This document shows, piece after piece, positions 2,372-58,413 of a stretch of DNA of 64,000 nt. Origin of the DNA: Octopus sinensis (taxonomy: Eukaryota); contig NW_021832382.1 of assembly GCF_006345805.1 (NCBI RefSeq), forward strand, positions 230,667-294,666, in the 5' to 3' direction. A program made the position numbers and the translations under genes. The stretch's first letter is position 1; every line of letters begins with the position of its first letter. Below the pieces are notes generated by a model. The model did no database searches. It was given only the letters and a program-made list of their open reading frames with translations, and was not told the DNA's origin.

Positions 2372-3735
2372 TTACAGTTCGACGCTGTTCGGCAATTCAG
2401 AAATAGAAATACCATAGTGAGTCTGAATGTCACTCAACATTCTTTTATCACTCTCACACACAAAATTAATAGCAGTCCCCTTTCTCCCATACCGTCCACT
2501 TCTCCCAATCCTTAACAAATACACACAATCCATTACCTGTGTAAATATGATTGTCTGTCGTTGGGGACATCATAGTTAATGACCAAATTCACGTGCTGCA
2601 AATCTAACCCACGCGACAACAAATCACTCGAAATTAGAATGCGACAGTTCTCAGACCGGAACTCCCCAATGACACGATCTCTCTCTGCCTGGTCCAATTG
2701 CCCGTGCTAGCATAACCACAAATCATCACCATAGACTCCACCGGGTATTTCTGAGATCTCATCAACTCGGACAAACATTTGACAGTGTTGATACTATTAC
2801 AAAATATGACAGCTTTGGATATAGACACGTTGTTGTATATCATCTTAAGGACATCAATCTTACTCTCCTAACCATCAAACTCACATAAACCACCTGATTA
2901 GCAACATTGACATAATATTGCGTAATCCCCGAGAGAGTCAACTCTGTCCGACTCACCAAAATACGGAAAGGATTTATCAAAAACTTGTCCGACAATTCCA
3001 AAACCTCATTCGGCAAAGTCGCAGAAACAAGGACAAGCTGACCACTTTTTGGCATATTGTCGATCAGCGCACACATTGTCTCCCGAAACCCCTTCGAAAG
3101 CATCTCATCGGCCTCATCAAGGACAATCATGAGCAGATGATCCAAGCGAAGGACATGTTCAATAATCAAATGGAGAACCCTCCCAGGAGTCCCCACCACA
3201 ATGTCCACTCCATCACGGACATCGGTCACGTTGTCCCTCACATTCCGACCTCCCACCAGAGCTCTGACGGATAACTAAAAATGTGTAAGTTGATGGACCT
3301 GGCAGTGTTTTGACAAGTCTACGAGAACGTTGTAGGACTGGGTGGCCAACTCTCTGGTTGGAGACAAGACAATTGCTCGACATTTGTGAACAGGGTTCTC
3401 TTGATACGCACAAAACACTCGCTGTACTGCAGCAATTGAAAAAGTAGCAGTTTTTCCTGTTCCCGACTGTGCTTGGATCACACAGTCTCTTCCGTTATAG
3501 CATGGGACTATTGCACGTTGCTGAATTTGGGAGGGGCGCTCAAATCCTGATGAAAATATTCCTCGAAGAATTTCCATCTTGAGACCCATGTCTTGGAAAT
3601 TCTCGTATATTGTGATGTCTTTACTGGTTGTAAAGATAAGTTCGGTTTCTGCATTTTCAAATTCATTGGTCTGAATATTAATTATTATTAAATATTGATT
3701 TTTTAAAATTTTTATTATGTAACAACCTGAGACAT
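2372..3735 (-). CDS. eIF4A-family DEAD-box RNA helicase (eIF4A1/2 vs eIF4A3 unresolved), 5 introns
   Basis: [40 protein letters not shown] and HRIGRSGR motifs join in frame after removing GT-AG introns of about 56, 24, 26, 23 and 26 nt. Ends [10 protein letters not shown]. Confidence 0.93.
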
Positions 3736-4239
3736 AACAAAACAACTAATGTAATAAAAACGTGAAGTATTTTATTGCTTAAATTATATTAATTAAATAT
3801 ATATAATCATTTAAGTTTATATATAAGTAAATCCTAATAATTTTAAAAATCCTTCTAATATATTTTTTGAGGAGAGACCAGCTGCCATGGAGAAAAGTAG
3901 CTATATATAGAGTATTGGTGGGCCAGTGCAGCAGTTTTTCCGTAAGGTAACGGTTGGGAGTCTTCGCTTTTGGGGAAACATATGGCTTTTTTGAGGTGGT
4001 TATACAACTATGTATAATCAATCTCAGCCAGACACCCCCCTGTATGATCGAAAGTCAGATAAAGCAGTCTTATCGGCTTGACAACAGTGAATATAATTGA
4101 TTTGGATGTAGATAGGTGTAGTTTCACAAATCATGCTGCGTTTCCTCTCCAATCATGTGGTTTGGTGTCGTACAGCGTGATAGAAGGCCGTAATACAGAG
4201 GAATAAAGAGAATGTCTCACAGAAATATAAACTGTTTGT

Positions 4240-4570
4240 CCTTAATAATTATTGTGGACGAGTCGTCTAGACTATTGAGTTTCTTGGCTAGCTCCTCTTA
4301 GAATGAATCAAGTTTGTCGACGTTTTTGGCAATCTTGCCACTGTGAGGGGCATAGACATTAATAATGGAAAGCCTTCCGAACCTGGTATCTATTTGTAGT
4401 ACCGATATTCGGTCGGTGAATTTCCAGAAACGGTAAATACAAAAAGAGAGATACTTGTGTGTCATGAATCTGTGGCCATAGTATCTACATTCAAGAGGCA
4501 GTGGAATCTTTGGCCATAAGCATCCATACAGCTGCTGACAAACATATCGGAAACCTGGATTGTATCCGCC
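4240..4570 (-). mobile_element. RTE-like AP-endonuclease relic
   Basis: Minus strand reads IINVYAPHSG, typical of RTE APE domains; stops and frameshifts present. Confidence 0.55.
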
Positions 4571-54779: not shown

Positions 54780-55790
54780 TTATCTCAAGTCGACTTGGAA
54801 GGCAGAGGACTTGAATTTGGAAATAAGTCGAGTAGTCCAGGGATCAACTCTTTTGATTTTGTCGTATTCTGCGATGGCATCCGCGAACCCCTCTTCGTCC
54901 TCCTGATCCACGGCCTCCATAAGAGCACAGAGGAGAGTATAATCCCGCGTATCACAGAAGGCAGGCACATCGAGGGCCAGTCGGTCGCAGGCAATGCGGG
55001 CGTTGGTGATATCCCCAAAACACAGGTGGCACAAACATGCTTTGAATGCGTATTCCGGGGCACCGTATTTCAGTAGGGCATCATTCGCCGTTTCTCGGGC
55101 ATACTGCGAGTCGAAATAGGTGACTGACCTTTTCGTAGATTTCGATGGCTTTGGGATAGTCCTCAGAATTGGCGGAGATGGTGGCCACGTTGAGTAGGCA
55201 TCTCTTGGCAGTGCTAAATGCTTAATAAATAGTAATTTACGCTTTTTGGTTCTCGTGGAGGAATAGCTCAGCCGACAGCTCATAGAATTGGGAGGCCTGT
55301 CATACTAAACAAATAGTGAGCACCTTGTTAGGGTCAGACACTGTTTTCTCGTAGATCTCCGCTATGGTCTCCAAATGGCGAGCGGCTATGGACAGCTTGC
55401 CCATGTCCTTTAATAGATCAACTGCCAACTGAAGGAGTCGAATGGATTCTAACAATTATTGCACTTTTCTCACCATTGATTTGACATGGTAATTTTCTTA
55501 GAGAAGAACTGGCCGTTACGTAACGATCGGCAGCATCAAAGTCTCGATTCAACTTTTCAAAGAGGACACCCGCTTGAGTGTATGCCTTTCCTGATGCTTC
55601 TGCGTTATTCTCCAGACGGAATGCATTCCCTGCGGCTGAATACAGCTCGGCCGCCTCCTCCATGCGCTGGGACTTATTAGACGTCCTATGAATTGGACGA
55701 GGACTGTCATACCCAAACAGAGTGGAAAGTATGCCATCTCGTTTATTCAGTTCTCCTCTGCTTCTGCTGACATTTTTCACCTTTCGACAT
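54780..55790 (-). CDS. NAPA: Alpha-SNAP (NSF attachment protein), about 5 micro-introns
   Basis: EEAAELYSAAGNAFRL, DMGKLSIAARH..IAEIYE, AIEIYE, LLKYGA, PAFCDTRD..EYDKIKRVDPW..DLR*. Two A-run indels near the 5' end. Confidence 0.93.
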
Positions 55791-56422
55791 TTGCACTTAC
55801 AAGAATTATAAAATCAGTTATCTATACTTAACAAAATTTAATCGAACAATATAATAATTTTATTCAAAACACTTTTTGTCGACGTTTTCCGTTATAAGCA
55901 TAATTTTCTCAATAATTTCCTATTTAGGAAATAAGTCATCGATACAATTCCTGAGAGGTCAGGAATTCACGACATTTTTTGCAGAAAATTTCTACAAACT
56001 AATTCCTGCTTTAATGATTATACGATTCTAATTTCAGTTGTGGATCAATAATGACACTTGACAATTAGTTCGTCAGTAATTAAACCAATTTCTCTCACTA
56101 ATAAAGCAGACGTGTTTGAAGTATTGCACAAACATTTATGGACAAAGAATTTGTATTGAATGGCTGTTTGTTTGCGGTAAGAAGATTTAAATTGATTTTG
56201 CGAAAAACATTAAGTCAGATTCCGTCAAATTGAATCGCAATATTTGACAAAAATAGATTGGAAGTCCACCCGATTTTTTTTCTATATTTAGAAAATAAAT
56301 TTTTAGGATGAAAATGACTCGATAATATAAAATAATAACCGTATAAAAAATTGTGATCAAAACTATTTTGAATATATAATAAATATAATTAATAAATATC
56401 GAGCAATGTGGCACTAGGAGAA

Positions 56423-58413
56423 ATGGACGGGGTTCTGAGCAAATGGACGAATGTCGTGCACGGATGGCAATACTGGTGGTTTGTTCTGGACAGAAACAAG
56501 ACAGAACTTGTCTACTACACAGTTAGTACCCCAAAGTCATACGAAACAGTCAAAAGACAAAATGAATAAAAAACTACCCCGAGGACGATTCAACCTGGAC
56601 GACGCCGTGGTGGGAATCGACGATGCCGATGACTGCACATTCACACTGACATGTGGGGATAATAAGGTCTTTTACTTCCAAGGCATGTCCTCCTCACTCA
56701 TCGACAGCCAAGGACTCGTCCGAACGAATGAATTGGGTCACCGAACTGGAGAATGTAATTTCTGCTGGATATCCAGTTCGTGACATTCCCTGACTTGTGC
56801 AGACCACGTCCTCCCCAGGGCCACCCGACCACCTCCTCTCAGTAGTGAGGACAGCAAAGTCCTTCGTTGGACTACTCCATGACCAGACAACCGTGTGTTT
56901 CCTCATCATGGCCTAGAAACTCCGCGACTCGATCACCAACGTGGAGGACTGTCAGCAAATCCTCTGCGGACTCGACGACAACCTGAAACTACTCTCCGGG
57001 GCCTTCGACGACATTGAGAAGACCGTGGTACCCCCTTTCCCTCAGTCCAGAAATCCTTGGACGAGGAACCCGGGGATTCCTTCAGCGCGGAATTCTACGA
57101 CTGTGCCCAATCGGTGTTGTGTGGCCCTCAGTTTGCAGGATGACGGAATGGAGGACGACGAACTGTACTGTGTGGAGGAAGAGGAGAGTCTCAACCTCTC
57201 CGGGAATCAGAGTGTGATCAAACATCTTCTGAAACAAGTGAGGATTGGAATGGACCTCACCAAAATAACTCTCCCGACCTTCATCCTCGAACGCCGCTCT
57301 TTTCTGGAGATGCTGGCTGACTTTTTGTCACATGGAGACATCTTTTCCAAGTTTGGTGTGCGGGTCGATGGCAGTATCACCACCTTCAAACTCCGAGAGA
57401 ACGGATGGTCCAGGTCGTCCGGGCATACCTCAGTTGTCTCCACGCGGGAAGGAATCCTGACGTTGCCAAAAAACCGTACAACCGATTTTGGGGGAGACTT
57501 TCCGCTGCTTTTGGCGTTTGGGAGAGGAGACGAAATGTTTGGGGGAGGGGGCTGTCCCGTGGGCCAATCAGGGCGACTTGACCTTTCTGGCCGAGCAAGT
57601 GTCTCACCACCCTCCCAGTGCTGTCAGTACTTGATTTCTTAGTCAGTGCCTTCTATGCCGAAAACAGGAGGCGCAAGTTTTCCTTTGAGGGACAAATTTG
57701 GACCAAGTCTCGCTTCCTCGGGTTTTCCGTGGGAGTGGACATGGTGGGAGTACCAAGATACGTCTGGGCGAACACGACGAGTCGTACTCCCTCACATTCC
57801 CGTCCGGATATGCCCGATCTATCCTCACAGTTCCCTGGTTCGAAATGGGTGGGAAGGTTGTCCTGTCGTCCTCCTCAGGATATTCGGCCACTGTCCAGTT
57901 CCACACAAAGGTTGTCTTCACTCCTCAATGTCCAAGCCAATGTACAAAAATACGAGAAATGAGATCACTGCAGAAATATATTCCCCAGGAGACAAGTCTC
58001 CGTTCTGCACAGTCAAGGGATGTTGGAATGGACTGATGATGGCCACTGATTCGACCAACCCTGTTTTGACTCAATTTAATTCGTAGGAGCCCTACCTTTT
58101 CTTCGATGCAGACAAGTCCATGGTTATTAGCAAAGTCGTCAAGCCGGTCAAAAATCAGGAACCCAATGAGTCCCGGCGGTGGAGTTTGTTGGACTGACTT
58201 GACGTAGTCTCTGGTTGGAAGTGACTCGAAACCTGTTTCGGAATGACGTGGTGAAGGCTACTGTCCATAAGCGTGAGTTGGAGGAGAAGCAGCGAATGGA
58301 GAGCAGACATCGACAGGAGAACAATATCACTCATGTCCCCAAGGTGGCATGCTTTGTTGAGGTGGTAGTACTTTGAGTTGGGTGAGGGAGACGTCTGGAG
58401 ATATAAACGTTAA
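56423..58413 (+). CDS. OSBPL9: Oxysterol-binding protein-related protein 9 (PH + ORD)
   Basis: [97 protein letters not shown]. Confidence 0.92.

What the first reader, a model, noticed from the sequence alone, without database searches (positions are those of the whole stretch)
2372..58413. Micro-intron splicing grammar: length-defined ~26-nt introns with almost no sequence consensus
Seen: in the genes I spliced by hand, introns are 23-31 nt (mostly 25-26) with one ~56-nt exception; gelsolin packs 11 into 1.36 kb. Donors vary freely after GT (GTCC, GTGG, GTTT, GTTG), acceptors include TAG, CAG, AAG and GAG, and many lack a polypyrimidine tract (e.g. gtggtttatgtgagtttgatggttag). In HELQ the conserved frame requires skipping an upstream AG (gtacttatgttgtccgctatAGacAG; gtaggactgtcctaactcatcAGAG). 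Known: such short introns are reported in dicyemids, some ciliates and nucleomorphs, and are far below typical animal minimum sizes. Inference: the 3' site is chosen by distance from the donor by a remodelled spliceosome.
Basis: partly seen in the sequence, partly recalled or inferred. Interest (0 to 1): 0.75.

Follow-up and report, generated by a model that had tools for sequence, protein, structure and literature searches.

The report
Dicyemid micro-introns with a spacing floor
This DNA likely comes from a dicyemid (a tiny kidney parasite of cephalopods) mixed into its host's genome assembly; its genes are interrupted by 23-31-base segments predicted to be introns, a size already published for dicyemids, and their ends are likely set by a minimum spacing of about 23 bases rather than by a fixed 26-base ruler.

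Summary
The window is a likely dicyemid cobiont contig in a 2.7-Gb host assembly, and such introns with reduced signals are published (PMC13644364, PMC6543705, PMC2222250). From 328 high-confidence homology-defined introns (14 genes): AGs up to +22 are tolerated and skipped; unused AGs are depleted from +23 to about +35 of the donor; an A is enriched at +17 to +19 and at least 6-7 nt before the acceptor. This fits two steric minima around a branch A, then AG competition, not a 25/26 ruler (the two rules tie 6:6; 56- and 91-nt introns exist). 'Almost no consensus' overstates: donors are exon-side MAG, GAG acceptors are 3 of 328, and 22 of 328 donors are GC. SF1, Slu7 and a LUC7L3-type gene are kept; no LUC7L2-type gene was found on small contigs. 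No RNA test was possible. The scan found the floor before on other DNA (e1-10334281).

The parts
2372..3735 (-). eIF4A-family gene; introns 3726-3671 (56 nt, no internal AG), 3298-3275 (24), 2893-2868 (26), 2729-2707 (23), 2536-2511 (26)
   Evidence: Hand parse gives a complete open frame; family name recalled from the DEAD-box motifs
30091..31450 (+). Gelsolin-like gene, 11 introns of 23-31 nt; one frameshift in the A run near 30400-30410
   Evidence: Spliced HMM alignment; positions shared with paralogues on C8697 (11 of 11) and C12404 (10 of 11)
34177..37018 (+). HELQ gene, 12 introns of 24-30 nt, no frameshift
35181..35206 (+). HELQ intron, 26 nt; TAG at +22 skipped
   Evidence: Acceptor margin 9.2 bits
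36762..36786 (+). HELQ intron, 25 nt; CAG at +23 skipped for GAG at +25; CTAAC with A at +15. One of 7 exceptions to first-AG-from-23
   Evidence: Acceptor margin 12.7 bits
36622..36647 (+). HELQ GC-AG intron, 26 nt
   Evidence: Restores two aligned residues; donor margin 7.0 bits
37148..39250 (-). XPR1-like gene, 11 introns of 23-31 nt, including a GC-AG intron at 38729-38704
   Evidence: Hand parse gives a complete open frame; name recalled
54780..55790 (-). alpha-SNAP gene, 5 introns of 25-27 nt; AGs at +19 and +20 skipped; frameshift near the start
   Evidence: Pfam SNAP on the last exon; hand parse
56423..58413 (+). OSBP-related gene, 12 introns of 23-29 nt, including a GC-AG intron at 56683-56707; three frame changes between about 57375 and 57760
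   Evidence: Pfam Oxysterol_BP; hand parse
32260..33469 (+). Repeat (Tc1/mariner-like by eye) 97% identical to a copy on the RPS13-bearing contig C7758; links the window to the cobiont

Best explanation
These 23-31-nt GT/GC-AG segments are likely ordinary major-spliceosome introns of a dicyemid, whose 3' ends would be set by two minimum spacings around a weak branch adenosine rather than by a fixed-length ruler. Shown from sequence: floor at 22-23 nt; AGs up to +22 tolerated and skipped; unused AGs depleted from +23 to about +35; A enriched at +17 to +19 and 7-8 nt before the end; donor information mostly on the exon side. Inferred: (1) the donor is read mainly through exon-side MAG|GT or AG|GCA; (2) U2 needs an A no closer than about +16/+17; (3) an AG must lie at least about 6-7 nt past it, which sums to the floor; (4) beyond the floor the first AG usually wins but competes with others out to about +35, so selection has removed competitors; (5) mis-spliced products are likely cleared by nonsense-mediated decay.
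For: 537 introns called in 14 non-redundant genes, 328 kept: lengths 22-38 plus one 91, median 26, 307 of 328 within 23-31. Frameshifting unused AGs in introns: 4 seen against 14.2 expected at +23 or beyond, 32 against 41.0 at +18 to +22; without the margin filter 6 against 25.5. Frameshifting exonic AGs: 43 against 87.2 up to +35, 210 against 181.8 at +36 to +50; donor-anchored step log-likelihood -963.0, acceptor-anchored -972.3, null -978.2. 197 of 217 introns up to 27 nt hold an A between +17 and -7, 142.6 expected (z 9.0, best of 6 windows tried); the A peak moves from +17 to +19 as length rises from 23 to 27. All 22 GC donors have -1G, 20 have -2A-1G and 18 have +3A, which the aligner did not score. 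In-frame stops in 72 of 83 3n introns against 103 of 244 others. SF1 and Slu7 lie on compact small contigs. PMC13644364 reports weak A's lying further from the AG in longer introns; PMC5378181 says minimal branch-AG distance explains 95% of AG selection data.
Against: No RNA or lariat data; the branch A is only a positional enrichment (peak 45-63%). Seven unused AGs lie at +23 to +26, including the HELQ CAG at +23. Nearest-to-26 scores almost as well as first-from-23 (189 against 191 of 198), partly because competitors are already purged. AGs are also under-represented early in introns (68 against 96.6 up to +17), so part of the depletion is general. A 91-nt intron on C6303 skips AGs at +33 and +49. 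Ten of the 14 genes are dynein heavy chains. Spacing windows were chosen after seeing the data. The 3n-stop excess is partly an aligner bias, although only 5 of 14 long insertions could hide a stopless 3n intron.
Confidence: 0.7

Rival explanations
1. Donor-anchored ruler in a remodelled spliceosome: a bridging factor measures about 25-26 nt from the donor and the nearest AG is taken, independent of a branch signal.
For: Competitor depletion is anchored on the donor and ends near +35; nearest-to-26 is right in 189 of 198 contested introns; the A excess is at least as well anchored on the donor (z 5.0) as on the acceptor (z 3.9).
Against: Only 123 of 328 introns are 25-26 nt, and length varies with AT content (gene medians 25-29; Spearman rho -0.25). 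Introns of 56 and 91 nt exist, and D. japonicum has mean 39 and maximum 2855. The length distribution has a sharp floor and a tail. SF1 and Slu7 are kept.
Confidence: 0.2
2. Acceptor-first recognition: the AG and branch A are defined first (U2AF/SF1) and the donor is then chosen by distance upstream.
For: Frameshifting exonic GTs are depleted 24-30 nt upstream of the acceptor (5 against 23.9); the acceptor has a non-G rule at -3 and G at exon +1 in 49%.
Against: The GT depletion overlaps the MAG consensus at the exon end; strong TAG and CAG at +20 to +22 are not used; there is no pyrimidine tract. This rival is not exclusive of the best explanation.
Confidence: 0.07
3. The segments or the AG skips are artefacts of assembly indels or of the aligner.
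For: Gelsolin, OSBP-like and alpha-SNAP carry frameshifts; 11 of 537 raw calls were under 22 nt, all poorly supported.
Against: HELQ needs no frameshift. Intron positions are shared by three gelsolin paralogues and, for RPS13, with D. japonicum and human. Skipped AGs recur in both haplotypes at 5 sites. The GC-donor signature and stop enrichment were not scored by the aligner.
Confidence: 0.03

Closest known systems
Dicyemid ultra-short spliceosomal introns (PMC2222250; PMC6543705; PMC6736024; PMC13644364; Ogino et al. 2010, seen only as cited)
   Same: Length (26.2 +/- 1.9, median 27 and median 24 reported; median 26 here), about 6 introns per gene reported, conserved positions, reduced intron-side donor, AG-only acceptor, weak A's that lie further from the AG in longer introns.
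   Different: Not D. japonicum itself by RPS13 sequence. In what I could read there is no test of AG choice, no +23 to +35 competition window, no GC-AG rate (22 of 328 here) and no LUC7 inventory.
Myxobolid myxozoan introns of 20-27 nt (PMC13644364)
   Same: Same size class and reduced signals; U2, U2AF1 and U2AF2 retained there.
   Different: Cnidarian lineage; the cobiont RPS13 carries the Dicyema-type residues, not the myxozoan ones.
Paramecium 20-34-nt introns (PMC5014332, PMC6009652)
   Same: Mode near 25 nt, weak signals, 3n introns enriched in in-frame stops.
   Different: Ciliate; 1.6-2.3 introns per gene.
Stentor and Blepharisma 15-16-nt introns; Bigelowiella nucleomorph 18-21-nt introns (PMC9505925, PMC13685798, PMC6009652)
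   Same: Length near a steric floor; positioned branch A in heterotrichs (10th base).
   Different: Those are nearly invariant in length; here there is a floor with a tail and only a weak A.
Branch-point-to-AG minimal distance, scanning and AG competition in mammals (PMC5378181)
   Same: Same logic for choosing the AG.
   Different: Here the donor-to-branch spacing appears compressed to about 17 nt and no pyrimidine tract is seen.
Left- and right-handed 5' splice sites and LUC7 subfamilies (PMC11842720)
   Same: LUC7L3 favours -1G/+5H donors; loss of a subfamily tracks donor class in fungi.
   Different: The mirror case: left-handed donors outnumber right-handed 129 to 46 here and only a LUC7L3-type gene was found on small contigs.

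Membership tests
Dicyemid genome | Marker gene shares Dicyema-specific residues | tested here: met
   RPS13 on C7758 shares MGRMYGxG and GVPNISRCASNKVLRILKKNG with D. japonicum, unlike the 10 other taxa in the supplement alignment; compared by eye, no tree
Dicyemid genome | Window contig belongs to the same organism as the marker contigs, not the host | tested here: met
   97% identical repeat shared with C7758, other repeats with the short-SSU contig C1618 and the dynein contigs; 0 hits in 82 kb of host chromosome loci, a small control; no hit in the 10-20 kb held of C8460, C9082 and C8459
Dicyemid genome | 18S rRNA placed within Dicyemida | tested here: inconclusive
   A 1667-bp SSU on C1618 against about 2.6-kb copies on chromosomes; 1,561 bp amplified from a dicyemid in PMC7710466; no reference sequence was available to align
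Dicyemid micro-introns | Median 24-27 nt, most under 30 nt | tested here: met
   Median 26; 284 of 328 under 30 nt
Major (U2-type) spliceosomal introns | GT/GC-AG ends at homology-defined and conserved positions | tested here: met
Major (U2-type) spliceosomal introns | Removal from mRNA | not testable with these tools
   No run was listed
Major (U2-type) spliceosomal introns | Branch adenosine | tested here: inconclusive
   Positional A enrichment only
Major (U2-type) spliceosomal introns | Polypyrimidine tract | tested here: not met
   Y fraction 0.56 against 0.55; also missing or very short in published dicyemid and myxobolid introns
Major spliceosome | SF1, Slu7 and Luc7 present in the cobiont | tested here: met
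   Compact genes with micro-introns on C8459, C9082 and C8460
Major spliceosome | U2AF65, U2AF35 and snRNAs present in the cobiont | tested here: inconclusive
   The U2AF65 search failed twice; the 48 scored U2 hits were host-type copies; U2AF35, U1, U5 and U6 were not searched
Fixed-length ruler introns (Stentor or nucleomorph type) | Nearly invariant length | tested here: not met
   22-38 nt with a tail, plus 56 and 91 nt

The most novel reading that the evidence does not exclude
Dicyemids have lost the LUC7L2-type U1 protein and kept only LUC7L3, the mirror image of fungi, and read donors almost entirely from the exon side (129 left-handed to 46 right-handed; 22 of 328 GC donors). Emptying the intron's 5' end of U1 contacts would let U2 load at +17, giving a genuinely altered spliceosome with a 17+6 floor and a +23 to +35 acceptor window.
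Probability: 0.3. Interest if true: 0.65.

Novelty: new member of a known kind. Interest (0 to 1): 0.4.

Why it matters
How a spliceosome fits on introns under 30 nt is stated as open in PMC13644364. The numbers here (floor 22-23, branch A near +17, competition to about +35, exon-side donors, frequent GC donors, possible LUC7L2 loss) turn that into testable predictions in an animal. In practice the assembly holds a sizeable dicyemid genome (at least 10 dynein heavy chain genes found) that could be mistaken for host sequence, and gene finders with a 30-nt minimum or GT-only donors would misannotate it.

Tried and rejected
RNA: no RNA holder was listed, so no reads were laid. A second dicyemid species for comparison: the paired dynein loci were 92-99% alike and are treated as haplotypes, and C8697:1-200000 showed no synteny with the window beyond gelsolin and repeats. 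The haplotype contig C12597 covered only the first 635 bases of HELQ, so the two skips could not be checked there. Cobiont U2 was swamped by host copies. The U2AF65 search failed twice. The representative search used a partly out-of-frame query and returned mostly fragments; full-length dyneins came. A codon-only ab initio parse mis-called many known introns and was used only as a guide. Dicyemid-specific 18S primers were not found in two papers. The D. japonicum genome supplement had no spliceosome inventory. Myxozoan origin was considered and rejected on RPS13 residues. A possible intron after alpha-SNAP was rejected because the protein ends at 54780. No structure or complex prediction was run.
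Full report
Source. The window is the last 64 kb of contig C8853 (294,666 bases) in a 2.72-Gb assembly with chromosome-sized contigs. The assembly holds about 2.6-kb SSU rRNA genes on chromosomes and a 1667-bp one on a small contig. Genes occur twice, as long-intron host copies on chromosomes and as compact copies on small contigs (dyneins, SF1, Slu7, LUC7). The compact RPS13 shares distinctive residues and both of its first two intron positions with Dicyema japonicum in the supplement of PMC13644364 (by eye). 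The window shares a 97% identical repeat with the RPS13 contig and none with 82 kb of host loci. It is therefore likely a dicyemid cobiont. The host is likely a cephalopod, because dicyemids live in cephalopod kidneys; that long 18S genes are typical of cephalopods is recalled.

Observation. I wrote a spliced profile-HMM aligner with a flat intron cost, a 12-nt minimum and frameshifts allowed, so length comes from homology alone. HELQ (24 of 120 homologues used) gave 12 introns of 24-30 nt and no frameshift; one becomes 26 instead of 32 nt when GC donors are allowed. Gelsolin (83 of 120 homologues) gave 10 introns, plus an in-frame 27-nt one placed by hand where both paralogues have an intron. 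Hand parses of eIF4A, XPR1-like, OSBP-like and alpha-SNAP add 33. Of 56 introns, 55 are 23-31 nt, 30 are 25-26 nt, and one is 56 nt with no internal AG. Three donors are GC. Frameshifts in gelsolin, OSBP-like and alpha-SNAP show that the contig has indel errors, but the two HELQ skips cost 9.2 and 12.7 bits to undo.

Larger test set. I fetched 16 compact dynein loci, aligned 12 to a profile of 25 stored homologues, and used 10 after dropping two haplotype copies; four partial or duplicate loci were not aligned. With HELQ and three gelsolins this gave 537 introns. I kept 328 that had margins of at least 3 bits for donor and acceptor, no nearby gap and at least 3 bits on each flank; 327 are 40 nt or shorter. 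Median 26; three are 22 nt and none shorter; 307 lie in 23-31 and 123 in 25-26. AT-rich genes have longer introns (rho -0.25).

Signals. Acceptors: TAG 182, CAG 89, AAG 54, GAG 3. Donors: GT 306, GC 22. Information is 1.19 bits at exon -3..-1 and 0.24 bits at intron +3..+6; left-handed donors (-1G, +5 not G) outnumber right-handed ones 129 to 46. All 22 GC donors have -1G and 18 have +3A. There is no pyrimidine tract. So the intron body is nearly free, but the junctions are not without consensus.

AG choice. AGs at +20 to +22 are skipped 26 times, including TAG and CAG; unused AGs at +23 or beyond number 7 against 33.9 expected from shuffles. Restricting to frameshifting AGs, which the margin filter cannot bias, and holding the -3 base: 4 against 14.2 beyond the floor, 32 against 41.0 at +18 to +22, 68 against 96.6 at +7 to +17. 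In the next exon, frameshifting AGs are halved up to +35 from the donor (43 against 87.2) and normal after; a step in donor distance fits 9 log units better than a step in acceptor distance. Plain first-AG use is thus refuted, and a fixed ruler is not favoured.

Branch A. A peaks at +17 in 23-24-nt introns, +18 at 25 nt and +19 at 26-27 nt, about 7-8 nt from the end. 197 of 217 introns up to 27 nt have an A between +17 and -7 (142.6 expected; best of six windows). A minimum of about 17 nt to the branch plus 6 nt to the end gives the observed floor. This step is inference; no lariat was seen.

Machinery. SF1 and Slu7 are present on compact contigs. The host has two LUC7 genes; the C10 copy matches yeast Luc7 closely and so is LUC7L2-type following PMC11842720. 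The single compact LUC7 is closer to the other host copy in all three segments (71% against 44% in ZnF1, 54% against 40% in ZnF2). A family search (17 candidates) and a search with the host LUC7L2-type ZnF2 exon (4 candidates) found no second compact gene, while the latter did pick up the compact LUC7L3-type one. An incomplete cobiont assembly, fast divergence or an intron inside the motif could hide it. U2AF65 and the snRNAs could not be assessed.

Known work. PMC13644364 (whole main text; supplement parts 1, 2, 59 and one search; logos in figures not visible) already reports introns under 30 nt in myxobolids and D. japonicum, donors reduced to GTa, acceptors reduced to AG, and weak A's further from the AG in longer introns, and leaves recognition open. 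Passages only: PMC6543705, PMC6736024, PMC2222250, PMC11842720, PMC5378181, PMC5014332, PMC9505925, PMC6009652, PMC13685798, PMC12953835, PMC7710466. Ogino et al. 2010 was seen only as a citation and may hold GC-AG or consensus data. Searches for Dicyema with GC-AG and Dicyema with LUC7 returned no paper; the library lacks most subscription papers.

Verdict. The feature is real and belongs to a published kind. The distance idea is right in a modified form: a floor and a competition window, likely arising from branch-point spacing. The acceptor window, the GC-donor rate and the LUC7 asymmetry are the additions worth following.

Noticed in passing
G000:C8460:278640-279420 (L091); host C5 and C10 loci L092-L099: Only a LUC7L3-type gene was found on small contigs, while the host has both types; this fits the exon-side donors.
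   Followed up: partly
dynein loci L033-L056; window 36622, 38729, 56683: GC-AG introns are 22 of 328, all with -1G; higher than the roughly 1% recalled for animals.
   Followed up: yes
all aligned genes: 3n introns are fewer (83 of 327) and enriched in in-frame stops (72 of 83 against 103 of 244), as in Paramecium.
   Followed up: partly
window 30400-30410, 57375-57760, 55750-55790: Frameshifts in gelsolin, OSBP-like (three) and alpha-SNAP, at least partly in homopolymer runs; likely assembly errors near the contig end.
   Followed up: partly
G000:C12597:374979-376111 (L004, L005): A 98-99% identical gelsolin copy is split by an insertion of about 280 bases with a 15-base overlap, like a target-site duplication.
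   Followed up: no
C6303 dynein (L041-L042), profile position 3336: A well-supported 91-nt intron that skips AGs at +33 and +49.
   Followed up: no
G000:C913:1052-3486 (L066): A third SSU rRNA type, 73-80% identical to the short SSU; organism not identified.
   Followed up: no
window 27208-27400 and 28100-28340: Tandem-repeat arrays in inverted orientation flank a transposase-like stretch; related repeat units also lie at 52380-52443.
   Followed up: no
window 1-1640, 19100-21990, 22800-25900, 49700-51000: Non-LTR retroelement-like remnants (by eye) and a degenerate tandem array; much of the window is repeats.
   Followed up: no
G000:C7758 and C10384 (L029-L032): RPS13 is found at four places with equal scores on two contigs; in L029 its first intron (27 nt) has internal AGs at +22 and +24.
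   Followed up: no
window 26200-26930, 40236-41809, 44918-45810, 48430-49406: Further compact genes with micro-introns (BBS2-like, SLC17-like, tetraspanin-like, RNF113-like; names recalled), not fully parsed.
   Followed up: partly
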